Source: a phage. Taken from it: a DNA stretch of 64,000 bases. Made by a program: the position numbers and the translations under genes. This document shows positions 7,442-61,103 of this stretch, one piece after another. The stretch lies in the NCBI GenBank assembly GCA_033286805.1, contig GCA_033286805.1_4727.1. One strand, written 5' to 3'. Within the stretch, counting starts at the first letter, position 1. Each line of letters begins with the position of its first letter. The notes under the pieces are model-generated. The model ran no database searches and was not told the DNA's origin. It worked only from the letters and a program-made list of their open reading frames with translations.

Positions 7442-10400
7442 TACATAAACTCCTCGATGATGCAAATCCCATTAGCACCACGCCCACCAGGCTTAGCGGT
7501 TCCTGAGTAAGAGTTATCGTAAGCACCGCCACCACCCGAACCAGGCGCGAGGCCGTTATGGGCGGTGCCAACACCAGCGCGACCGCCACCGCCCCAATAT
7601 GACGCACCCCCACATCCACCGACGGCAAGAGTACCGGCTTGTCCATCGTTACCGTCTCCGCCCGGAATGCGTATATCCCCGGTAGTAGGTACGCCCCCAT
7701 AGCCACCGCCAGTGTTTGTGACAGTTGTTTTTCCTGCGCCTTGCCCGCCGGGAGCAGTTAGCAGGGATGCAAATTTACTATCCCCACCCCCGTTCCCAGA
7801 CGTCGCCCCAGAGCCACCGGAACCACCAGAACCAATTACAACAGAATAACTAGCAGCTGTTACCGTTATAACCGAAATTACTGTTCCGCCAGCGCCTCCC
7901 CCAGCGCCAAAAAACGTTTCGCTGTTGGAATAAGCCTGACAGCCACCGCCGCCACCGCCGCCACCGGTTATTGTTACTCTAATCCGTTTTGTTCCTTGTG
8001 TTGGGGTGTACGTCCCTGACGATGTGAAAACACGCATGTTCAGTAAACGTCCGACATATCCGCTAGAATCGGCTAAACCAAGATCTTTAGCTGCTAACGT
8101 GATATTAGCTGTACCGTCAAACGGTTTACCGTTAATCGTGCGCGCGGTCTGCAACTTCGTCGCCGTTGCTGCGTTTCCTGATGTGTTCTGGTTCCCCGCA
8201 GCGTTAACACCCGGCAGATTGATGTTCGCACTACCGTCGAAAGATACCCCACCAATGGTGCGGGCTGTTTTCAGTTTTGTCGCCGTGGCAGCATTACCGG
8301 TTGTGTCTTGGTTACCGGTGGTGTTTACCCCAGGCAGGTTGATATTTGCCGTTCCGTTAAATGAAACACCGCCAATCGTCCTTGCTGTTTGAAGCCTCGT
8401 CGCGGTAGCGGCGTTACCCGTCGTGTTCTGGTTTCCGGTTGTGTTCACACCAGGGATACTATCTTTCGAGGTGTAGATCTGTGCCCATTCTGACCAGTTC
8501 GAATCGGCCGCATCACGACGTGAACGTAGGTAAGCTGGAGCGTATGCACCTGAGGTACCTGACCACCCAATGAGGATTTCACCTTCACCGACCGATGAAG
8601 CCCCTTTAAGATGAATGACGTTACCATAAGCGGTGGGATACCCGTTATTGTACGCTTCATACATCTGGATGCCCGCATTGCTGCCCTGAGCCGTGTTAGC
8701 TAATGCCGTAACACGACCTTTGGAGGCGAGAGCGGTAATACTGAAGCTAATATCCTTAGTACCGTCAAAGGCGACCCCATTAATCTTCCGTGCTGTTTGG
8801 AGTTTCGTGGCGGTAGCCGCATTACCAGAGGTACTCTGATTACCTGCTTTGTTCACGCCAGGCAAATCAATGTTGGCTGTTCCATCAAAGGACACGCCCC
8901 CTATGGTTCTCGCTGTCTGGAGTTTTGTTGCTGAGCCAGCGTTTCCGGAAGTGCTTTGATTACCTGCCGCGTTGACACCTGGTAGGTTAATGCTAGCAGA
9001 GCCATCAAAAGAAACTCCACCGATCGTGATTGGTGTTTTCAATTTCGTGGCTGTCGCAGCATTACCCGTCGTATTCTGATTGCCAGCCGCATTAACGCCT
9101 GGTAATGCGATATCGGTCGTACCATCGAACGCGACACCACCGATTTTACGGGCAGTCTGTAGCTTGGTCGCTGTAGCCGCGTTGCCGCTGGTATTTTGCG
9201 TGCCCGCTTTATTTACGCCTGGTAAATCAATGTTCGCAGTACCATCAAAAGAAACACCCCCGATGGTTCTCGCGGTCTCAAGTTTGGTTGCGCTTCCTGC
9301 GTTTCCGCTGGTGTCTTGGTTTCCCGCTGCATCAACACCCGGTAGACTGATGCTGGCCGAACCATCGAAACTCACACCACCGATCGTAACAGCGGTTTTC
9401 AATTTCGTAGCGGTTGCAGCGTTCCCCGTGGTATTTTGGTTACCTGTCGCATTCACACCCGGTAATGCAATATCCGCTGTTCCGTCAAAGGCAACGCCAC
9501 CGATTCTACGTGCAGTTTGTAGCTTGGTTGCACTAGCAGCGTTACCGCTGGTATTCTGGGTGCCAGCTTTGTTAACACCAGGGAGATCGATGTTAGCAGA
9601 ACCATCGAAGCTAACGCCACCTATCGTTCTTGCAGTAGCAAGTTTAGCTGCTGTAGCAGCGGCGTTACCGACTTTTAACCATTCGCCCCATGGACCATCC
9701 TGGCCGTTCCATGATGCCGTTAAACTACGTACGTAAATATTGCCGGTACATACAGTGTAACGTTGCGTTCCACCGAATTGCCCGGTTGGGAGCACTTCAA
9801 TGTAACCTGCGGCATTTGCTTCAGGGAAATTGTGGGCGACGTCCGCGTTCGTTGATACTGGTTTAGACCAAATACCCACAGACGCTTCAACCGGACCGTA
9901 CGTATTCAGATTTGCGTCGGTGGGAAGTTGTCCTCGAAAACGCTGGAATTGTGTTGCCGATAACCCCAACGTTGTTTGCATGCTTTCAATGCTGGATTGC
10001 TGAAGTAACGTCCGTGCTGTCGACGTAATCACGGTAAGCGCAACTTTATTAACACCGGTGAAATACGGGAGTTTGTCTGCTGATGTCGCTAAACCTGAAA
10101 AGGCGGTCAGTAATGCGTTAAGGGGCTGCTTCCCAGCTAACGCATTTGTTACCGTCGTTGCGAAATTAGGATCACTTCCTATAGCTCGAGCCAGCTTATT
10201 AAGCGTATTTAGCGTCGCTGGTGACGAGTCGATCAGCGCCGTGATCGCACGCATCACAAATTCCGTGTTGGCTATCTGTCGACTGCTATTGTTAACTGCT
10301 GCGGTGGGCGCTGCTGGCGTACCAGTGAATACAGGGCTATTAAGATCCGCCTTGAGGGCGATGAGACGTTTAAGCGCTTCAACATCAACTTTCAGGTTTT

Positions 10401-15668: not shown

Positions 15669-16499
15669 TTAATCGTAACTAAAATAAAGTTTGCTGCTGA
15701 CGCCGCTATCGGAATGAGGTTTTAATACCAGAACAGAGCTTCCGAACGACGGAAGTATTGGAACATCTAAATCGTTCGCATCGGCAACTTTTCCATTATA
15801 AACGACATTGGCTGTTGTGATGAGTTCCCAAGCTAAGGTATAACTCATTGAAATCAGCGACGAGGCTAAACGGAATGCGTTGTATCCTTCTGGAGTATCT
15901 CCAACCGACATCGAACGTATCGCATCTTGCGGTGGTAAATTTAGCTTGATGCCGTAGGTGCTGAATGTGTGGAAATCCCCTTGTTTACTATCTTCTGGAT
16001 AATACGAGGTTAGCGGTTCTCGCACCGTAATCAGTTCGCTAATATCGGTACTTACATCTTTTCGTGCGAGGAATTGAAACGTACCGTGCCATGATGCCGA
16101 TGCGTCAGAACGAACGGGAACAGATATGGTTTTCTCGCCGCTTTCAAATTTAACCTGTGATGCTAACGCTGAAGAATCAAAGATCGTTAAATCGATCTTC
16201 AACCCATATTTCTTAAACAGCTGCGTTAAGCAGTCTGCTATCGTCGTCTTATCAGCAACGACAATAAAAGGTTGGTGTTTGATAAAGAGCTTATTAATGT
16301 CTCGACGTTGAAGATAAACCTGTACGGGGTCTTCGACGTAGTAAACCGATTGTGGTGCGGGGGCTATAGAAAGGCGTAACCGACCCGATGCACCATACCA
16401 GGCTGGCGTTAACGTAACGTCTGACAGGGACAACGGATGCTGGAGATAGGCGTTTATTTTAGATAACACTTCCTCCTGCCATGATGCTTCAGGATACAT
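15669..16499 (-). CDS. paralog with shared N-terminal fiber/spike module (paralog D)
   Basis: 276 aa; LQRRDINKLF ... FKKYGLKIDLTIFD ... ISVPVRSDASASWHG aligns with the module in 2980, 11326 and 52039. Confidence 0.5.
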   Translation of the reverse strand: MYPEASWQEEVLSKINAYLQHPLSLSDVTLTPAWYGASGRLRLSIAPAPQSVYYVEDPVQVYLQRRDINKLFIKHQPFIVVADKTTIADCLTQLFKKYGLKIDLTIFDSSALASQVKFESGEKTISVPVRSDASASWHGTFQFLARKDVSTDISELITVREPLTSYYPEDSKQGDFHTFSTYGIKLNLPPQDAIRSMSVGDTPEGYNAFRLASSLISMSYTLAWELITTANVVYNGKVADANDLDVPILPSFGSSVLVLKPHSDSGVSSKLYFSYD

Positions 16500-16556
16500 G
16501 CTGACCTCATAGATGATCGTTGATAGGAAAGAGACCTAATTCATACCATGGGAACC

Positions 16557-16614
16557 TCAAAAAAAAAAACGAAAAATAGGGAAACGGTGTTCATCCTTTT
16601 TAGGGATGAACACC
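16557..16614 (-). terminator. rho-independent terminator
   Basis: 12-bp stem CGGTGTTCATCC / GGATGAACACCG, followed on the minus strand by a long U tract (complement of the A run at 16557-16569); just downstream of gene 16636..17211. Confidence 0.7.
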
Positions 16615-16635
16615 GCGTACCGTTATATCGAACGA

Positions 16636-17211
16636 TTAGTAAGGAATCAGATCGTTAAGCTTTTCTTCTTCAACGACAAAGAAGTTGTTCTGGTCGTCTA
16701 AATCTGTTAACAGGACTTGTCCGACAGTAAAGCAGGTGCCGCCCTTCTTAGGTATCCATACCGGCTCATTCGTTACCTTATCGGGATACCATTTGAAACG
16801 ATTGGTATCCAAGAAGAACGCTGCTTTGTTCGCTTTATCGGTTGAACGATAGCTAACCAACGCAGGCCACTCAATCCAGGTGTTTGTGCATGGTACATGT
16901 AAAGGATACCATGCGCGCCAGCGTTTGCCTGGGTTGCTAGGATCAACCCAATACTCGGCAGTCAATACAGCATCTTTATAATGTTTCTGCATTAACATTT
17001 CGAGCACAAGCTCATTACCTTTTGATGCATCTAAAGTCACTTCCGTCATATAAAGAGATTTAGGTAACTCAGACTGTTTTGCGGGTGTTACAACACCGGT
17101 AACCAACGGTCTGCTCGGTTTACGTTTCTGTTCTTTCCGACGTGTGTAAAAGAATAGTCCGACAGATACAGCAACAAGTACAATAAACAACACTACCTTA
17201 ATCCAATTCAT
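16636..17211 (-). CDS. hypothetical membrane-anchored protein
   Basis: N-terminal hydrophobic helix MNWIKVVLFIVLVAVSVGLFFY then basic stretch; 191 aa. Confidence 0.5.
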   Translation of the reverse strand: MNWIKVVLFIVLVAVSVGLFFYTRRKEQKRKPSRPLVTGVVTPAKQSELPKSLYMTEVTLDASKGNELVLEMLMQKHYKDAVLTAEYWVDPSNPGKRWRAWYPLHVPCTNTWIEWPALVSYRSTDKANKAAFFLDTNRFKWYPDKVTNEPVWIPKKGGTCFTVGQVLLTDLDDQNNFFVVEEEKLNDLIPY

Positions 17212-18380: not shown

Positions 18381-18434
18381 GATGATTTCCTTCTTTATTA
18401 GGATGATTACATTTAGTCAGTTTAACAGCATAAA

Positions 18435-18459
18435 CCCTTCCCGCCTTACGCAGGAAGGG
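18435..18459 (-). terminator. stem-loop terminator
   Basis: CCCTTCC / GGAAGGG stem followed on the minus strand by UUUAUGCUGUU; downstream of gene 18474..18971. Confidence 0.5.
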
Positions 18460-18473
18460 CATACGGATTTGTT

Positions 18474-21747: not shown

Positions 21748-21772
21748 TCACCTAGGTAATATAGCCGTGAAA
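21748..21772. promoter_or_regulatory. conserved 25-bp intergenic motif, copy 1
   Basis: CACCTAGGTAATATAGCCGTGAAA, near-identical to the motif at 49690-49714; 66-90 nt upstream of minus gene start 21682; adjacent to hairpin GGTGAAGC..GCTTCACC. Confidence 0.3.
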
Positions 21773-27729: not shown

Positions 27730-28207
27730 CTTGTATCCCTCTTTTCTTTCTATGATGCCACCAACGCTGATAGACAGCCTGCTTCGTACGTGTTATACCG
27801 AAATGCGCATTAACCCGTTCAGCAATGTGGTGCCAATCCTGTGTTTCTTCCAACAATGTATCAACGAAGGCTACGAAGATCTTAGTATCAGCCTCGCTTA
27901 ACCGCTTGAAACCATGACGGTGTGCTATCGTTCTAATACTGTTTGGATCCCTGTTTAAATCGCGTGCGAGTTGTTTGTAACTTTTGTGTTTGCAGTGTGC
28001 TCTGATATATTCCAACTCATCGACACTGAAACGTTTATGCGGTTTACGACGTTCAACATTTAAGTATATCAACCTCGATTTAATTGCACCGTACGTTGTT
28101 TCCATGATTTCTGCGATTTCACGGATTTTTAATTTCGGGTGACGATAGTACAATTCCAGCAACTGTTCATCATCCTTACGATTCCATCGTCGTACTGGAG
28201 GTTTCAC
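27704..28207 (-). CDS. Myb/SANT-like HTH protein, tandem paralog 4 of 6
   Basis: RRWNRKDDEQLLELYY; FSVDELEYIRAH..SYKQLARDLNRD; WHHIAERVNAHF. First codon at 28207 appears to be GTG, so the start is uncertain. Confidence 0.45.
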   Translation of the reverse strand: MKPPVRRWNRKDDEQLLELYYRHPKLKIREIAEIMETTYGAIKSRLIYLNVERRKPHKRFSVDELEYIRAHCKHKSYKQLARDLNRDPNSIRTIAHRHGFKRLSEADTKIFVAFVDTLLEETQDWHHIAERVNAHFGITRTKQAVYQRWWHHRKKRGIQDGTISTMA

Positions 28208-31391: not shown

Positions 31392-31471
31392 AAAATTGTC
31401 AAAATGTACATCAGCATAACGCCCGTGCCCGCCCGCGATGGGAGGGACACAGGCAATACGCTTTTATTTCA

Positions 31472-39771: not shown

Positions 39772-39903
39772 CGTTGTTCACCTCGTCGTAAAAGTAAATA
39801 GAGTTTTGTCGAGACGCCCTAATTACTTACAACGTCGGTTCTCCCGGCTTCAGAGAATTCTTAAAATCCGTTAGTTTTGATAGATAGGGTAAGACGGCAT
39901 AAA

Positions 39904-39924
39904 AGCCTCCCATTACGGGAGGCT
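39904..39924 (-). terminator. stem-loop terminator
   Basis: 8-bp stem AGCCTCCC / GGGAGGCT, loop ATTAC, followed on the minus strand by UUUAUGCCGUCUUACCC. Confidence 0.5.
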
Positions 39925-39936
39925 CCATCAATCAAC

Positions 39937-41501: not shown

Positions 41502-41533
41502 CCCTCCTCCAACCCGTCAGGGAAGGAGGAGGG
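41502..41533. terminator. GC-rich nested stem-loop
   Basis: CCCTCCTCC / GGAGGAGGG 9-bp stem around loop AACCCGTCAGGGAA; near-copy of the element at 1956..1987; TTATGTT follows on the minus strand. Confidence 0.45.
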
Positions 41534-47874: not shown

Positions 47875-47894
47875 ACCCTCCCCGAAGGGAGGGT
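47875..47894 (-). terminator. stem-loop terminator
   Basis: 8-bp stem ACCCTCCC / GGGAGGGT with CGAA loop; TTATGCC follows on the minus strand. Confidence 0.45.
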
Positions 47895-47903
47895 GATTAA
47901 CGA

Positions 47904-48461
47904 TTACTCCATCCATACTTCTTCGTCGTAATGATTTTCTATCGCATTACGCCAAAAACGCACGGTGTCCAAACTAATCGGCGCATAAAAATGCTGATCA
48001 ACGCCGACATTAAGTCCGTTGGCCTTCGCTAACATACAGCGATGAATATGACCGAATAGATTGAAGTAGCCTGGGTTTCTTTCGCTGGGCTTATGGCATA
48101 GCCAGTAGGATTCGTCATTGCTAATCGGCAACACCAACGGATGTTCATAAACCGCAGCAAACCCCATACCGAGCAATTTATCACGCCATGCTTCAAAGCT
48201 TAATCCTGTTGCTTTGTATGCGTCTTCGTCCCAATTCCCCAATACCAATTGAACCTGGATATCAGAACGAATGGCTTCCACGAACTCGAACTTACCCCAA
48301 TCACCTAAATGCCATAACACACTGTTCTTTGGAAGCTTGTTGATGGCTTTCAGCATATGCTGGTTCATATCGGCGACGCTTGCGAACGGACGGCGTGAAT
48401 ACGTCCATGTACGCTCGCTATCAAAATGGGTATCCGACATAAAGAAGATGGACGGGGTCAT
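47904..48461 (-). CDS. calcineurin-like metallophosphoesterase
   Basis: Ordered motifs FMSDTHFD, LWHLGDWG, LVLGNWDE and FGHIH match the D-x-H / GD / GN-[HW]-D/E / GH-x-H phosphoesterase signature. Confidence 0.65.
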   Translation of the reverse strand: MTPSIFFMSDTHFDSERTWTYSRRPFASVADMNQHMLKAINKLPKNSVLWHLGDWGKFEFVEAIRSDIQVQLVLGNWDEDAYKATGLSFEAWRDKLLGMGFAAVYEHPLVLPISNDESYWLCHKPSERNPGYFNLFGHIHRCMLAKANGLNVGVDQHFYAPISLDTVRFWRNAIENHYDEEVWME

Positions 48462-48940
48462 TGATCTAATTGCTCCAGAAATGCACGACCCGATTTACTT
48501 GCTTTTAAATGCTGTTCTGCGGAAGTAAGCAGAAGATCGGTTGGTGTATATGCAGCGCTACCTTTCCACGCTGTTTTCAGTTTACCCTTTTCGATACTGA
48601 ACTGAATCAGTTGTTGGGTACCGAAGTTAAGCGTGTTCGTCGCGGCGCTAAATACACCACCCATCATGCTGTAACCAAAGACTTTCACGTTTTCCGTGTA
48701 GAAGTCATTGTCGATCAATTTGTTCTGGAGCTCGAGTTGGTCGGACGGCAGCAATCCCCCATCGAAGACGCTTAAAATACCAGCCAGGCGATACATACTC
48801 ACCTTTCCTGAAACGCCCACCACGTAGTTGCCGTACACGGTTTCTTCCAGTTTAGCAACAACGGTGCGATCGTCGGAGGTTTTCATCGAAACCTCAATAC
48901 CATCACCAACTTCTGTTAACGTTAAATCAACGATACTCAT
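48458..48940 (-). CDS. hypothetical protein
   Basis: 160-aa ORF; 4-bp overlap with the downstream gene. Confidence 0.45.
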   Translation of the reverse strand: MSIVDLTLTEVGDGIEVSMKTSDDRTVVAKLEETVYGNYVVGVSGKVSMYRLAGILSVFDGGLLPSDQLELQNKLIDNDFYTENVKVFGYSMMGGVFSAATNTLNFGTQQLIQFSIEKGKLKTAWKGSAAYTPTDLLLTSAEQHLKASKSGRAFLEQLDQ

Positions 48941-48962
48941 TCATTATTCTCCGCTTTCATGT

Positions 48963-49649
48963 TTAACACATGATTTCACCATGTTTCTTTTCAACATACG
49001 TATAAACGTCATCCAAATAAGCAATGAGTTTATCACGATCCGCACAGAGCGATTTAATCATCGCAATCTCTTTCATATAAAGCTGCTGACCTAACGCCGG
49101 ATAGGTAATCCAAGCGTAGCCGTCAGGCGCAAATTTAGAAATAAGATAATCGGCGGTTTCCTGTAATGCGAACTCTTTGCTCATCTGGCCGTAACGATGT
49201 TCGATTGCACGGATACCAAAACGTTCGCTATCGAGACGACCCATATCCGCCAGACGAAGCACCTGAGAAGCAACAGAACTACGTGGACCAGAGTGCGAGG
49301 CACGATGTTCAGCAATAAGTACGCGTATCTCCTCGATGTCTTCCGGTGTGAAAATATCCTGCTCGTTACGAAGCAGGATAACCGATGCACGAATACCACC
49401 GATAAGGTGGTGGTATGTTCTGTTTTCGTGGCAAGCGATATCATGCATAAAAGCAGCGGTTAATAGACGACGACGTTCCGTGGGTCTGATGATCCCAACC
49501 ACATCAGCAAGTTCATTTGCCAGTTCAACAACAGCAAGCACATGTTCTTCTTGATGTGCAAGATCGTTCTTCCGAATATTTTCAATTACTTCAGCGCGAG
49601 TTTCCTGAGATAAGAAATTTAAACAATCCAACGAATATAAAGATTTCAT
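48963..49649 (-). CDS. HD-domain phosphohydrolase
   Basis: His ... His-Asp pattern (HQEEHVLAVVELANEL ... AAFMHDIACHE) typical of the HD superfamily; first gene of the minus-strand run. Confidence 0.55.
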   Translation of the reverse strand: MKSLYSLDCLNFLSQETRAEVIENIRKNDLAHQEEHVLAVVELANELADVVGIIRPTERRRLLTAAFMHDIACHENRTYHHLIGGIRASVILLRNEQDIFTPEDIEEIRVLIAEHRASHSGPRSSVASQVLRLADMGRLDSERFGIRAIEHRYGQMSKEFALQETADYLISKFAPDGYAWITYPALGQQLYMKEIAMIKSLCADRDKLIAYLDDVYTYVEKKHGEIMC

Positions 49650-49689
49650 CGCACGTACCTCTTTGAATCTATTAATAAATTTTCTTTAC

Positions 49690-49714
49690 TCACGTAAGTA
49701 ATATAGCCGTGAAA
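49690..49714. promoter_or_regulatory. conserved 25-bp intergenic motif, copy 2
   Basis: TCACGTAAGTAATATAGCCGTGAAA in the divergent region between minus gene start 49649 and plus gene start 49858; matches 21748..21772. Confidence 0.3.
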
Positions 49715-49793
49715 GGATTTGTGTTGGTCCGTTTCGATGCCCATCGTATTTTATGGATTGTCGAATGACGTCATTTTAAGGGACATCCCCGGC

Positions 49794-49829
49794 CTCCTCC
49801 CCAGGAAAGGTGTGGGGAGGAGTTTTTAT
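49794..49829 (+). terminator. terminator-like hairpin with T tract in the divergent region
   Basis: 9-bp stem CCTCCTCCC / GGGGAGGAG followed by TTTTTAT on the plus strand, ~30 nt upstream of the helicase ATG (49858). Confidence 0.45.
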
Positions 49830-49857
49830 CATACATTCTATTAAATCGAGCGCGATT

Positions 49858-51939
49858 ATGTTGGATAGAATCAATCGTTTAATGAACCGAATAACGGTTA
49901 AAAATCAGAGTAACAATACCGTGCATATCGGGGGTATCGATGCCTGGCGTCTTTCAGATGACATTCAGCGAATATGGGGTACCTCCCGATTTATGAAACA
50001 TATGTTTCGTAATTTCTCTTCTAGTGGACTCAGTCTCCACAATTTTTACCTTCCCGATTTCGTTTATATTCTCGAAACGATCATCGAAGCAAAGAATACC
50101 CGCAGTAATAAACGCATGCTGAAACACCTTATTGAGGTACTGCTGCAGGAAACCTGGTTGCAAAATACCACAATCGAGCAACCTGCAATCCTCGATAAAG
50201 CACGCATGAACAAAATGCTAACGCTCTCCCTGTTCGATTATCAAGATGAGTTTATCGACATCTATAACCGTAACGTACCTAAATATCGACTGAAAGGATA
50301 CGTGTGTGCGATGGGTGCGGGTGCTGGTAAAACAATCACCGCATTGGCTTTAAGCGCCGCAATGAACGTCGACGTATTTGTGGTCTGCTGTCCTAAGAAC
50401 ACCATGCGTTCAGCATGGCAATCCGATGTAAACAAAGCCATCGTTGACCCCGCAACAGAAACCGCATTCTGGTCAGATACAATGCCACCATCACAGCTGC
50501 AGAAAAGCGATAAGTATTATTTTCTGCATTACGAGTCGATGGGTTTATTAAACGATGTAATGATCAAGCATAAACGCACCGCGAAGCGAGTTCTTATTGT
50601 TGTTGACGAAAGCCATAACTTCAACGACAAGAACAGCCAACGTTCCCAACGACTGGTTGATCTCGTACAGACGATGCGTCAGACCATGAATGCTGATGTT
50701 CATGTCTTGTTTATGTCGGGTACGCCTGTTAAACAAATGGGTTCTGAGATGATCCCGTGTTTAGGTTGTATTGACCCAATGTTCCAAGGACAGGTGGTCG
50801 ATAGCTTCAAAGCAATTTACGGTTTAACCAGCAGTCGCGCTAACGATATCCTCAGACATCGTCTTGGGTTCATGATGCATGTCGTACCTAAAGAGGCTTA
50901 TCGTAAAACCCGTCCGGAAGTTCAGGACGTTTACGTGAAGCTCCCTAACGGTAGCGATTATACCATCTCAAGTATCCGCGACGACATGGCGATATTTGTA
51001 CGCGATCGGGCAAAGTATTACAAGGATAACTGGGGGCATTACAGAAAGATTTTTGATGACGCCTTGGACTACTATCGTAAGACTATTCGTACCGATGGTG
51101 AACGTAAAGAGCTATCTCGATACGAATCGATTGTTGCTCGTTTCCAGAAAGGTTACGACCCCGTCAGAGACAAAGAAGATGCGATGTTCTGCAACGCGTT
51201 TGAAAAACGTTCCATCATGCCGGTTCTTCCTTCCGATTTAAGGGTTGCTTTCAAAGACGCCAAGAGCGTCATCAAGTACGTTGGGTTGAAAATTCAGGGT
51301 GAAGCGTTGGCACGTGTTCTAGGTGCAGCCCGCATTCGGTGTCATGTCGACATGGTGGAGTACATCGACTTCGAAGGGTACATCAATAACGCCGAAGCCA
51401 AAGTGTTGATCTTCACGTCGTACGTTCAGGTGGTTGAACGCGTCGACAACATGCTTCGTGATGCGGGTTTCTTACCTGAACCCATTTACGGGAAGACCAA
51501 CAAGAACATCAACCAAATACTTGCTCGTCTACGCGATGATCCTGACAGCGGTCCCGCTATCGCAACATTTGATAGCTTAGCTGAAGGGGTTCCGATGCTG
51601 ATGTGTAATGTCGGCCTTTTCCTGAACAATCCATGGCGTTCATCCGATGAAATCCAAGCCATCAGCCGTCTCGATCGTGTAGGGCAAACGCAGCCCGTTC
51701 GGATTTATCGTTTCATGTTGGATACAGGAAGCGAGGGTAACGTTTCTACACGTAGCCACGAAATCATGGAGTTAAGTCGACAGCTTGTTGAAGAAATCAC
51801 GGGTGTCAAATATGTAGTGAACAAGCAAGACGATGTTAACTTGCAAGAAACGTTGGCGATGGAAGGATACGATCAATACGTTACCGTAAACACCACGGAA
51901 TACGATATTAAACCGCGACCTGCATTCTTGGAATGGTGA
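49858..51939 (+). CDS. SF2-type helicase/ATPase
   Basis: Walker A-like CAMGAGAGKTITAL and DExH-like box VLIVVDESHNF. Start set at ATG 49858 (MLDRINRL); the longer track ORF starts at a GTG inside the hairpin. Confidence 0.55.
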   Translation: MLDRINRLMNRITVKNQSNNTVHIGGIDAWRLSDDIQRIWGTSRFMKHMFRNFSSSGLSLHNFYLPDFVYILETIIEAKNTRSNKRMLKHLIEVLLQETWLQNTTIEQPAILDKARMNKMLTLSLFDYQDEFIDIYNRNVPKYRLKGYVCAMGAGAGKTITALALSAAMNVDVFVVCCPKNTMRSAWQSDVNKAIVDPATETAFWSDTMPPSQLQKSDKYYFLHYESMGLLNDVMIKHKRTAKRVLIVVDESHNFNDKNSQRSQRLVDLVQTMRQTMNADVHVLFMSGTPVKQMGSEMIPCLGCIDPMFQGQVVDSFKAIYGLTSSRANDILRHRLGFMMHVVPKEAYRKTRPEVQDVYVKLPNGSDYTISSIRDDMAIFVRDRAKYYKDNWGHYRKIFDDALDYYRKTIRTDGERKELSRYESIVARFQKGYDPVRDKEDAMFCNAFEKRSIMPVLPSDLRVAFKDAKSVIKYVGLKIQGEALARVLGAARIRCHVDMVEYIDFEGYINNAEAKVLIFTSYVQVVERVDNMLRDAGFLPEPIYGKTNKNINQILARLRDDPDSGPAIATFDSLAEGVPMLMCNVGLFLNNPWRSSDEIQAISRLDRVGQTQPVRIYRFMLDTGSEGNVSTRSHEIMELSRQLVEEITGVKYVVNKQDDVNLQETLAMEGYDQYVTVNTTEYDIKPRPAFLEW

Positions 51940-51946
51940 TTAAGAA

Positions 51947-51970
51947 GCTCTGCCTGACATCAGGCAGAGC
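51947..51970 (+). terminator. rho-independent terminator
   Basis: Perfect 10-bp stem GCTCTGCCTG / CAGGCAGAGC with ACAT loop, followed by TTCATGCTGTATTTGTTG; 8 nt after the helicase stop. Confidence 0.6.
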
Positions 51971-52038
51971 TTCATGCTGTATTTGTTGCAAGATCGTATG
52001 ACGTATATGCGTTGTACTTATTTAATAAGGCAGAATAA

Positions 52039-53490: not shown

Positions 53491-53512
53491 AAAAAAAAAA
53501 ATAGATAGCATA

Positions 53513-53547
53513 TCTTCCTCCCTACCCATAACGGGCGGGGAGGAAGG
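53513..53547. terminator. bidirectional terminator between convergent genes
   Basis: A11 run, then nested hairpin CTTCCTCCC / GGGAGGAAG, then TTTATGTCAATTTAATTT; between plus gene end 53490 and minus gene end 53564. Confidence 0.6.
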
Positions 53548-53563
53548 TTTATGTCAATTTAAT

Positions 53564-60677: not shown

Positions 60678-61103
60678 TTAAAACTTTAAAACTTTTTCGA
60701 TACGATGGTTGACGAGTTCATTGAACGACTCTTCAGCTTGTTCGATGATTTCATCAACGTCGATATCTAATTGTTGGGGTTGGATAACATGCTCTTTCAT
60801 GGTTTCCAGCCAGTATTCGGCTTTAATCATGACGTTAGCGACGTGTTCGACCTGGCTGCGTATGTCGACGATCTGGCAGTCAGGATTGTTAATATCGATG
60901 ATGTGTCCGTGGTGGTTGATAAAACCTAGCTTATTTGATGCCCTTACCGCATCGCGGGTAAGTTCTTGCAAGATTAAATTATTAACGTAGTTCACTGCTA
61001 CGGAACGATTTTCGTTATCACTCATACCAGGGATCCTCTTTAAGTCATCACATTCTAGTGTTAAGCAGTTAAAATAAACCGTTCCTTTTATCAGCATAAA
61101 CAT
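60678..61103 (-). CDS. hypothetical protein
   Basis: 141-aa ORF; ATG at 61101-61103 directly abuts the upstream hairpin, so the second ATG at ~61097 may be the real start. Confidence 0.45.
   Translation of the reverse strand: MFMLIKGTVYFNCLTLECDDLKRIPGMSDNENRSVAVNYVNNLILQELTRDAVRASNKLGFINHHGHIIDINNPDCQIVDIRSQVEHVANVMIKAEYWLETMKEHVIQPQQLDIDVDEIIEQAEESFNELVNHRIEKVLKF

What the first reader, a model, noticed from the sequence alone, without database searches (positions are those of the whole stretch)
49650..49857. Terminator-like hairpin with T5 tract inside the divergent region upstream of a plus-strand gene
Between divergently transcribed gene starts (49649 minus, 49858 plus) there is a 9-bp GC stem followed by TTTTTAT on the plus strand. 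No upstream plus-strand gene exists for it to terminate, so it is either an attenuator or structured 5' leader of the helicase transcript, or an insulator against antisense transcription running through the minus-strand block. The conserved 25-bp motif lies in the same region.
Basis: partly seen in the sequence, partly recalled or inferred. Interest (0 to 1): 0.4.

Follow-up and report, generated by a model that had tools for sequence, protein, structure and literature searches.

The report
Leader terminator hairpin before phage helicase
A real terminator-type RNA hairpin ends a very strongly conserved stretch of about 85 bases just upstream of a jumbo phage's virion helicase gene, and most likely acts as a promoter-proximal stop or attenuator of a kind already described in related phages.

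Summary
The window is a close relative (97.9% identity) of the nucleus-forming E. coli jumbo phage Goslar.

**The hairpin is real.** It has a 10-bp stem (49794-49803 / 49813-49822), a 9-nt loop and a TTTTTAT tail. The expected number of comparable sites is 0.05 in the whole window. The Goslar GenBank record already annotates the orthologous spot as a putative terminator.

**Its class is partly matched.** The pyrimidine/purine stem and T-run fit the conserved phiKZ-type terminator class, which has about 15 copies in the window and about 40 in Goslar. It lacks that class's downstream TATG-C-Y-G-T module, and it is the only copy in the window with no co-oriented gene upstream.

**The surrounding block is exceptionally conserved.** Across 8-10 Goslar-like genomes (down to 82.6% identity), 49743-49802 is the only stretch in 8 kb where every 60-nt window is invariant. 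Within 49745-49822 the only substitutions are one compensatory stem pair. The block starts at a TATG, the phiKZ late-promoter core. The 35 nt between the hairpin and the helicase ATG vary freely.

**Best reading (confidence 0.5).** A promoter-proximal terminator or attenuator in a leader of about 103 nt, giving a short RNA of about 70 nt. This matches the 5'UTR terminators mapped in phiKZ and 201phi2-1.

**Main rival.** An orphan insulating terminator against antisense transcription.

The 25-bp motif is a separate element, probably the early promoter of the opposite-strand operon. No transcript data exist for this phage.

The parts
49794..49822 (+). Terminator-type stem-loop. The 5' arm CTCCTCCCCA is at 49794-49803, the loop GGAAAGGTG at 49804-49812 and the 3' arm TGGGGAGGAG at 49813-49822.
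   Evidence: Sequence; folds. All 10 pairs are kept in 10 genomes, with one compensatory change (A49803>G with T49813>C in L011). The 3'-arm plus T-run PWM score is 10.1, against a class median of 8.7. Goslar annotates it as a putative terminator.
49823..49829 (+). T5 run followed by AT (TTTTTAT), the U-tract of the terminator.
   Evidence: T-richness is kept in relatives, but TAT is not: the variants are TTTTTA-C, TTTTTACC and TGTTTT-C. It lacks the class-typical TATGCYGT; the tail score of -7.6 is below all 32 standard members.
49743..49793 (+). Invariant block upstream of the hairpin (CATCGTATTTTATGGATTGTCGAATGACGTCATTTTAAGGGACATCCCCGGC). Inferred to be the promoter plus the 5' part of the leader or short RNA.
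   Evidence: 0 of 49 columns are variable in 49745-49793 across 10 genomes, with one 1-nt insertion in L011. 49743-49802 is the only stretch in the 8-kb alignment where all 60-nt windows are invariant.
49752..49755 (+). TATG, the candidate nvRNAP late-type promoter core. The inferred start site is G49755, 39 nt before the hairpin and 103 nt before the ATG.
   Evidence: Invariant in all genomes. The phiKZ late promoter is T(-3)ATG(+1), with all four bases required in vitro. TATG alone is only weakly predictive: 8.2 per kb in sense-strand intergenic DNA against 3.7 per kb in coding DNA.
49764..49775 (+). Perfect 12-nt palindrome AATGACGTCATT inside the conserved block.
   Evidence: Unique in the window. 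There are exactly two copies in the 237-kb Goslar genome; the other lies between the early promoter and the start codon of chimallin gp189.
49685..49721 (-). Neighbouring element, not part of the hairpin unit: the extended 25-bp motif (minus strand ...TTTCACGGCTATATTACTTACGTGAGTAAA), the probable virion-RNAP early promoter of the gp159 operon.
   Evidence: 1 of 37 columns is variable. About 8 copies exist in Goslar, all oriented toward minus-strand genes whose starts lie a few tens to about 120 nt downstream (distances read from the annotation tables), including chimallin. A second copy is at window 21748-21772. phiKZ has CTGTAATATAGA at the orthologous place.
49858..51939 (+). SNF2/DEAD helicase gene (Goslar gp160, orthologue of phiKZ gp203), the gene downstream of the hairpin.
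   Evidence: phiKZ gp203 is packaged in the head, associated with the DNA and non-essential.
48963..49649 (-). HD-domain hydrolase gene (gp159), the first gene of the divergent minus-strand operon.
51947..51980 (+). Standard-type terminator after the helicase gene (GCTCTGCCTGACATCAGGCAGAGC plus TTCATGCTGT), used as the comparison case.
   Evidence: Relatives show stem covariation, loop changes and a conserved TTATGCYG tail.

Best explanation
The hairpin is a genuine intrinsic-terminator-type RNA stem-loop of the kind that chimalliviruses (phiKZ-like, nucleus-forming jumbo phages) use throughout their genomes. Here it sits inside the 5' leader of the virion SNF2 helicase gene rather than behind a gene.

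Inferred mechanism:
1. The phage non-virion RNA polymerase starts at or near the conserved TATG (G49755).
2. It transcribes about 40 nt of invariant leader and reaches the 10-bp GC-rich hairpin plus U5 tract.
3. Most polymerases stop there, releasing a short RNA of about 70 nt.
4. The fraction that reads through makes the helicase mRNA, which has a 5'UTR of about 103 nt.

The hairpin therefore works as a promoter-proximal terminator or attenuator that sets the level or timing of a late, head-packaged protein. As a side effect it also stops any plus-strand antisense transcription arriving from the 48-kb minus-strand block.

Shown: the hairpin, its class-typical stem, its non-chance occurrence, the extreme conservation of the TATG-to-hairpin block, the absence of a conserved element downstream, and the absence of a conserved ORF. 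Inferred: the start site, actual termination, read-through and any regulation of it.
For: 1. The hairpin is real and not a chance feature and is already annotated as a terminator in Goslar.

2. Its stem and T-run match the conserved phiKZ terminator motif BCCYCCCC..GGGRRGG..TTAT. That class is abundant here. The 3' half of the motif occurs 12 times in the window against 2.1 expected. Goslar has 26 tandem and 15 convergent copies. The focal arm score is above the class median.

3. In 49745-49822 only 2 of 78 columns vary, and those two form a compensatory pair. The flanks vary at 24% (binomial P = 2e-7). In 8 kb aligned across 8 genomes (down to 82.6% identity, 26.9% of columns variable), 49743-49802 is the only fully invariant 60-nt stretch.

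4. The block begins at TATG, the phiKZ nvRNAP late-promoter core with +1 at the G. The orthologous helicase is a head-packaged protein, from which late expression is inferred.

5. The 35 nt between hairpin and ATG vary at 26%, with indels, and hold no conserved promoter-like motif. The promoter is therefore more likely upstream of the hairpin.

6. There is precedent. In a survey of six Pseudomonas phages including phiKZ, 42 mapped terminators lie in 5'UTRs, 34 of them with bimodal read-through. One phiKZ example gives a 71-nt RNA with more than 90% termination, confirmed by northern blot. 201phi2-1 has 8 sRNAs derived from 5'UTRs.

7. The focal hairpin and the other divergent-gap hairpins in Goslar all lack the TATGCYGT tail that 29 of 32 standard terminators carry. 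They look like a distinct, possibly leakier, subclass.
Against: No transcript 5' or 3' ends are available for Goslar or this phage.

TATG alone is only about twofold enriched in intergenic sense DNA, so the start-site call is weak. The surrounding GTATTTTATGG has no other copy in Goslar.

No convincing alternative (antiterminator) structure was found. Only the terminator stem is robust in the fold ensemble.

Covariation rests on a single event, and 51 of 500 shuffles do as well.

The hairpin is absent from the orthologous gap of RAY, Eowyn and Proteus phage 10. In phiKZ the gap hairpin faces the other way. The arrangement is therefore specific to the Goslar lineage.

Conservation of the block could reflect DNA-level functions instead.
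Confidence: 0.5

Rival explanations
1. Orphan insulating terminator. The hairpin stops plus-strand (antisense) transcripts that run across the minus-strand early/middle block, so that they cannot enter the helicase gene. The helicase has its own promoter downstream of the hairpin or is otherwise independently started.
For: No co-oriented gene lies upstream. A palindromic cassette at 41502-41533 also presents a TATGCCGT on the plus strand. The only plus-strand hairpin with a T-rich tail that the scan lists between there and 49794 is a weak one at 49393-49416. Goslar has 7 hairpins on the antisense strand of intergenic gaps. phiKZ has a standard-type terminator with no co-oriented gene upstream in the orthologous gap, placed just upstream of the early promoter on the other strand. 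In the six-phage survey that included phiKZ, 9% of terminators were antisense to genes.
Against: The 35 nt downstream of the hairpin, where the promoter would have to be, vary freely and contain no TATG except the one overlapping the start codon. This model does not explain why the 50 nt upstream of the hairpin are the most conserved DNA in 8 kb.
Confidence: 0.25
2. Stand-alone small RNA gene. The TATG-to-hairpin unit encodes a trans-acting RNA of about 70 nt, and its position before the helicase is incidental. The shared 13-mer AAUGACGUCAUUU would let it pair with, or share a binding protein with, the chimallin 5'UTR.
For: The unit is compact and invariant, with a promoter-like start and a terminator end. 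The 12-nt palindrome occurs only here and in the chimallin leader region of Goslar. Intergenic sRNAs exist in 201phi2-1.
Against: No expression data exist. Complementarity to the chimallin leader does not extend beyond 12-13 nt (read from the sequences). There is no Rfam match. The helicase would then lack any recognisable conserved promoter.
Confidence: 0.1
3. DNA-level regulatory site. The 10-bp inverted repeat and the 12-nt palindrome are operators for a dimeric phage DNA-binding protein that controls the divergent promoters.
For: There are two symmetrical elements in an invariant block between divergent genes. The L011 double change preserves DNA symmetry as well as RNA pairing. The palindrome recurs at the chimallin early promoter region.
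Against: The stem has the composition of the roughly 40 terminator hairpins and is followed by a T-run on one strand only. No binding protein is known.
Confidence: 0.08
4. Terminator of a small unannotated protein gene in the gap (ORF 49719/49737-49844), or an N-terminal extension of the helicase from GTG 49810.
For: Both ORFs are listed mechanically.
Against: ATG 49737 is lost in L014, L015 and L017. Indels in L011, L014 and L015 shift both frames. Neither has a Shine-Dalgarno sequence. Homologues align from residue 1 of the 49858 start.
Confidence: 0.02

Closest known systems
Conserved phiKZ-type intrinsic terminator motif 5'-BCCYCCCCHWWDGGGRRGGBYTTATKYYGT-3' (Putzeys et al. 2024, PMC10914365; motif A of 201phi2-1, PMC11512511)
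   Same: A pyrimidine-rich 5' arm (CCTCCTCCCC) and a purine-rich 3' arm (GGGGAGGAG), with a T-run plus AT directly after the stem. It sits in the same phage family and belongs to the same abundant class in this genome.
   Different: It lacks the downstream K-Y-Y-G-T part, reading CATAC instead of GCYGT. It has a longer T-run. The loop did not change in any of the 10 genomes compared. It has no co-oriented gene upstream. The TAT after the T-run is not conserved in relatives.
5'UTR-resident premature terminators and 5'UTR-derived ncRNA candidates of phiKZ (e.g. T102 before PHIKZ221, T131 before PHIKZ302) and 201phi2-1 (sRNA005)
   Same: A terminator lies between a presumed promoter and the start codon with no ORF in between. 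The predicted short RNA is about 70 nt, against 71 nt for T102. The sequence is conserved among close relatives.
   Different: Those cases rest on mapped start and end sites and on northern blots. Here the start site and the termination are inferred only. There is no sequence similarity to them, and the orthologous phiKZ gene (gp203) shows no such hairpin on its strand.
Lambda PR'-tR' promoter-proximal terminator (6S RNA) read through by Q antitermination
   Same: The logic is the same: a short terminated transcript in front of late virion genes, with read-through needed for expression. This comparison rests on my own knowledge.
   Different: No Q-like factor, qut site or pause signal is known here. 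The polymerase is a phage multisubunit enzyme inside a proteinaceous nucleus. This is an analogy only.
Canonical bacterial Rho-independent terminator
   Same: A GC-rich stem of 9-10 bp followed by a U5 run.
   Different: The loop is 9 nt. The element is not located at the end of a gene. The host RNA polymerase is not the enzyme that transcribes this genome (phiKZ literature).

Membership tests
phiKZ-type conserved terminator motif (Putzeys 2024) | GC-rich stem with a CCYCC-type 5' arm and a GGRGG-type 3' arm | tested here: met
   CTCCTCCCC / GGGGAGGAG. The 5' arm is 90% pyrimidine. The arm plus T-run PWM score of 10.1 exceeds the class median of 8.7 and is in the top 0.26% of all TAT sites.
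phiKZ-type conserved terminator motif (Putzeys 2024) | TTAT directly after the stem | tested here: inconclusive
   Present in the window and in Goslar (TTTTTAT). In relatives it is replaced by TTTTTAC, TTTTTACC or TGTTTTC. T-richness is kept but TAT is not.
phiKZ-type conserved terminator motif (Putzeys 2024) | Downstream K-Y-Y-G-T (in Goslar, TATG-C-Y-G-T) | tested here: not met
   The tail CATACATT scores -7.6, below all 32 standard members and no better than random TAT sites. It is not among the 12 window matches to GGGRRGGBYTTATKYYGT at up to 3 mismatches.
phiKZ-type conserved terminator motif (Putzeys 2024) | RNA 3' ends map at the element | not testable with these tools
   No Goslar transcriptome was found.
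Canonical intrinsic terminator | Stable GC-rich hairpin followed within 0-2 nt by a U-run of at least 4-5 | tested here: met
   -19.6 kcal/mol with T5 immediately after the stem. The loop of 9 nt exceeds the 3-8 nt cap of the simple scan.
5'UTR premature terminator / 5'UTR-derived ncRNA (phiKZ, 201phi2-1) | Terminator between the start site and the start codon of the downstream gene, with no ORF in between | tested here: inconclusive
   There is no conserved ORF and the hairpin ends 35 nt before the ATG. The start site is only inferred, from the invariant TATG 39 nt upstream.
5'UTR premature terminator / 5'UTR-derived ncRNA (phiKZ, 201phi2-1) | Short RNA (<250 nt) plus longer read-through transcripts sharing one 5' end | not testable with these tools
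   Needs ONT-cappable-seq, Term-seq or a northern blot.
5'UTR premature terminator / 5'UTR-derived ncRNA (phiKZ, 201phi2-1) | Sequence conserved upstream of the equivalent gene in phages of the same genus | tested here: met
   49745-49822 is invariant in 10 genomes except for one compensatory pair.
Known cis-regulatory RNA families (Rfam riboswitches, leaders, sRNAs) | Covariance-model match | tested here: not met
   Only chance-level hits (E >= 1, bits well below gathering) in 49500-50000.
Leader-peptide (ribosome-coupled) attenuator | Translated leader ORF with an SD, an alternative antiterminator helix, and coupled transcription-translation | tested here: not met
   No SD-preceded leader ORF and no stable alternative helix. 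Chimalliviruses uncouple transcription from translation (PMC12908238 abstract).
Sigma-70 promoter / host RNAP unit | -35/-10 hexamers in the gap | tested here: not met
   No promoter-like site in 49650-49857.

The most novel reading that the evidence does not exclude
The invariant TATG-to-hairpin unit may encode a discrete RNA of about 70 nt, or a leader bound by a dedicated factor. Its 13-nt motif AAUGACGUCAUUU occurs in the genome only here and in the leader region of the chimallin (nuclear-shell) mRNA. That motif could tie expression of the head-packaged helicase to that of the shell protein, either by palindrome-to-palindrome RNA pairing or through a shared sequence-specific regulator. Read-through of this non-canonical terminator (no TATGCYGT tail) would be the regulated step.
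Probability: 0.1. Interest if true: 0.65.

Novelty: new member of a known kind. Interest (0 to 1): 0.35.

Why it matters
Gene regulation in nucleus-forming jumbo phages is poorly understood. They use their own two RNA polymerases, their late promoter (TATG) is too short to explain specificity, and ribosome-coupled control is not available inside the phage nucleus.

A promoter-proximal terminator embedded in the most conserved noncoding block of this region gives a concrete, small and mutable target. It could be used to test conditional termination or antitermination by the non-virion polymerase in an E. coli phage that is genetically tractable.

On its own, however, it is one more example of an architecture already mapped in phiKZ and 201phi2-1, and the hairpin itself is already annotated in GenBank.

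Tried and rejected
- **Rfam search.** Searching 49500-50000 at E <= 10 gave only chance hits.
- **Covariance model.** I tried to build a model of the terminator class from 32 Goslar members. The MAFFT alignment was not in structural register and RNAalifold returned no pairs. I replaced it with a PWM anchored on the TAT after the stem.
- **Coding explanations.** The small ORFs in the gap and a GTG-49810 extension of the helicase are rejected because start codons are lost and indels shift the frame in relatives.
- **Host promoter.** No sigma-70 promoter-like site lies in the gap.
- **Promoter family.** I searched for further copies of GTATTTTATGG to define a promoter family. The focal copy is the only one in Goslar.
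- **Hairpin in distant relatives.** RAY, Eowyn and Proteus phage 10 have no such hairpin upstream of the orthologous helicase. phiKZ has one on the opposite strand.
- **Sources not available.** The supplementary start- and end-site tables of PMC10914365 and the 2014 J Virol phiKZ paper are not held. No Goslar transcriptome was found.
- **Minus-strand terminator.** The hairpin does not work as a minus-strand terminator. There is no T-run and no TATG on that strand.

Full report
**Identity of the window.** The region 48900-52000 is 97.9% identical to Escherichia phage vB_EcoM_Goslar, a nucleus-forming jumbo phage (chimallivirus). The gap 49650-49857 lies between the start of a minus-strand HD-hydrolase gene (Goslar gp159) and the start of a plus-strand SNF2/DEAD helicase gene (gp160). 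gp159 is the first gene of a minus-strand block of about 48 kb. gp160-gp161 form a two-gene plus-strand island. The same layout, with the helicase facing away from opposite-strand genes, is found in Erwinia phage RAY, Proteus phage 10, Klebsiella phage Eowyn and phiKZ (gp203). phiKZ gp203 is a head-packaged, DNA-associated, non-essential virion protein.

**The observation.** CTCCTCCCCA (49794-49803) pairs with TGGGGAGGAG (49813-49822) around a 9-nt loop, followed by TTTTTAT. Hairpins of this strength with such a T-run are expected 0.05 times in the whole window on both strands, and two are observed. The Goslar record already carries a 'putative transcriptional terminator' feature on it. The simple built-in scan missed it only because the loop exceeds 8 nt.

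**The class it belongs to.** A sliding fold of the window and a tail-aware hairpin scan show about 15 intergenic hairpins of one type. They have a pyrimidine-rich 5' arm and a purine-rich 3' arm, followed at once by T(T)TATG-C-Y-G-T. Nearly all are on the coding strand between co-oriented genes, or are double-faced at convergent junctions.

This is the conserved phiKZ terminator motif BCCYCCCCHWWDGGGRRGGBYTTATKYYGT, defined from mapped 3' ends. Its 3' half occurs 12 times in the window against 2.1 expected. In the complete Goslar genome I count 26 tandem, 15 convergent, 7 antisense-intergenic and 4 'divergent' cases, one of which is an artefact of my gene calls.

I anchored 32 standard members on the TAT after the stem. 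Of these, 29 read TATG, mostly TATGC[CT]G. The focal element has a class-typical arm and T-run (score 10.1, class median 8.7). Its tail (CATACATT) scores below every member and no better than random. The two other clear divergent-gap hairpins (gp210|211 and gp231|232) also lack the tail. The weaker ones in gp12|13 (annotated as a terminator in Goslar) and gp22|23 lack it as well. The focal hairpin is therefore a variant of the known class, not a textbook member.

**Comparative evidence.** A metagenome scan with the helicase protein returned Goslar-like genomes whose helicase is 93-100% identical. Alignment of the gap in 10 genomes shows three conserved blocks separated by variable spacers:

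| Segment | Coordinates | Variable columns |
|---|---|---|
| gp159 leader | 49650-49684 | 6 of 35 |
| Extended 25-bp motif | 49685-49721 | 1 of 37 |
| Spacer | 49722-49744 | 11 of 23 |
| Block upstream of the hairpin | 49745-49793 | 0 of 49 |
| Hairpin | 49794-49822 | 2 of 29 |
| Hairpin to helicase ATG | 49823-49857 | 9 of 35, plus indels |

The two changes in the hairpin are A49803>G and T49813>C in the same genome, turning A-U into G-C. Two variable columns out of 78, against 24% in the flanks, gives P = 2e-7.

In an 8-kb alignment of 8 genomes (identity to the window 82.6-97.3%, 26.9% of columns variable, coding DNA included), 49743-49802 is the only stretch in which every 60-nt window is invariant. 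Nearby standard terminators behave differently. Their stems covary, their loops change or shrink, and their TTATGCYG tails are kept. Formal pair counting gives 100% pairing and one compensatory pair. That is consistent with an RNA stem but statistically weak, since 51 of 500 shuffles do as well.

**What the block contains.** It starts at CGTATTTTATGG. TATG (49752-49755) is the phiKZ late-promoter core, with transcription starting at the G and all four bases required by the non-virion RNA polymerase in vitro. A start at G49755 would give a 103-nt leader and an RNA of about 70 nt if transcription stops at the T-run. That is the size of the phiKZ T102 product, 71 nt.

The block also holds a perfect palindrome, AATGACGTCATT (49764-49775), and a small GGG..CCC helix. 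Only the terminator stem is robust in the fold ensemble, and no alternative antiterminator helix stands out. No Rfam family matches. The ORFs in the gap are not conserved.

**The 25-bp motif.** Its reverse complement (TTTCACGGCTATATTACTTACGTGA) has about eight copies in Goslar. All are oriented toward a minus-strand gene start a few tens to about 120 nt downstream (distances read from the annotation tables), including chimallin gp189. phiKZ has the related CTGTAATATAGA at the orthologous place. This fits the description of jumbo-phage early (virion RNAP) promoters as a phage-specific AT-rich element of about 10 nt centred near -10. It is a separate element that drives the gp159 operon away from the hairpin.

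**Mechanism.** The best-supported reading is a promoter-proximal terminator or attenuator in the helicase leader. Four observations point that way:
- The conserved unit runs from a promoter-like core to the end of the stem.
- The place where a downstream promoter would have to lie is not conserved.
- The gene is a head-packaged virion protein in phiKZ, so late expression from a TATG-type promoter is expected by inference.
- Terminators inside 5'UTRs with bimodal read-through are experimentally documented in phiKZ and 201phi2-1.

Ribosome-coupled attenuation is unlikely, because transcription and translation are separated by the phage nucleus. Any control of read-through would have to be polymerase-, protein- or RNA-mediated. 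The missing TATGCYGT tail suggests a leakier or differently recognised stop than the standard terminators.

The main rival is an orphan insulator against plus-strand antisense transcription. The two are not exclusive. phiKZ has an orphan standard terminator in the orthologous gap, facing the other way. Stand-alone sRNA and DNA-operator readings cannot be excluded.

**Limits.** There are no transcript data for this phage. The start site is inferred from a 4-nt core that is only about twofold enriched in intergenic DNA. The covariation evidence is a single event. The hairpin is specific to the Goslar lineage.

**Verdict.** The element is a new member of a known kind, and the hairpin itself is already annotated. 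The new information is the exceptional conservation of the TATG-to-hairpin unit and its deviation from the standard terminator tail.

Noticed in passing
window 47875-47894(-), 41502-41530(-), 39902-39926(-), 31420-31455(-), 18434-18460(-), 1955-1988(+/-), 53512-53548(+/-); Goslar genome-wide: Standard terminator hairpins are followed at once by TATG (29 of 32 in Goslar, mostly TATGC[CT]G), including at convergent junctions. TATG is the phiKZ non-virion-RNAP late-promoter core, which is 'necessary but not sufficient'. Terminator and promoter core therefore form one cassette. Either transcription restarts at the G, or the polymerase's own promoter signal serves as a pause or termination signal. 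The phiKZ terminator paper does not mention TATG in its text.
   Followed up: partly
window 49764-49775; Goslar 142859-142870 and 172929-172940: The 12-nt perfect palindrome AATGACGTCATT (13-mer AATGACGTCATTT on the mRNA-sense strand) occurs exactly twice in the 237-kb Goslar genome. One copy is in the helicase leader block. The other lies between the early promoter and the start codon of chimallin (gp189). About 0.01 copies are expected by chance.
   Followed up: partly
window 49685-49721 and 21748-21772; Goslar 2548, 113778, 142781, 160772, 166050, 172959, 201925, 226676: The 25-bp motif TCAC.TA.GTAATATAGCCGTGAAA has about eight copies, all oriented to drive minus-strand genes, including chimallin. 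It is the probable early (virion RNAP) promoter consensus of Goslar, read as TTTCACGGCTATATTAC on the transcribed strand.
   Followed up: partly
Goslar 10008-10026(+), about 16805-16825(+), 187600-187640(+), 215350-215372(+) (outside the window): Other divergent gaps in front of plus-strand 'island' genes (gp13, gp23, gp211, gp232) also carry a hairpin with a T-rich tail 35-75 nt before the start codon. None has the TATGCYGT tail. This looks like a recurrent leader architecture for island genes.
   Followed up: partly
L025 (phiKZ) 1733-1759: In phiKZ, the orthologous gap (PHIKZ204|PHIKZ203) holds a standard-type terminator (AAAGGAGCCC..GGGCTCCTTT + ATGCCAT). It sits on the PHIKZ204 strand, immediately upstream of the early-promoter element, with no co-oriented gene upstream.
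   Followed up: no
Goslar 27746-27774, 71990-72018, 237249-237277, 15778-15809, 61009-61040: Identical or near-identical terminator cassettes (TCCTCCTTCCCTTACGGGTTGGAGGAGGG + TTATG) recur at distant sites, which suggests spread by duplication.
   Followed up: no
window 53491-53501 and gap 16500-16635: An A11 run follows the gp161 stop codon. On the minus strand this is a T11 run 14 nt after the double-faced hairpin at 53514-53546. A second T11 run lies on the minus strand in the 16.5-kb gap after a 14-bp hairpin.
   Followed up: no
window 51993-52004: ATCGTATGACGT, between the helicase terminator and gp161, is invariant in all 8 genomes while its surroundings vary. It is followed by ATATGCGT, a possible promoter for gp161.
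   Followed up: no
window 8102-9649: A tandem repeat array with a 120-nt period (60-73% identity) lies inside the tail-fibre repeat protein gene (Goslar gp90).
   Followed up: no
window 48458-48940 (gp158): The second gene of the minus-strand operon next to the gap (gp158) is reported among the virion proteins present at more than 200 copies in Goslar (bioRxiv 10.64898/2026.04.21.720040). An operon headed by an early-type promoter therefore also encodes an abundant virion protein.
   Followed up: no
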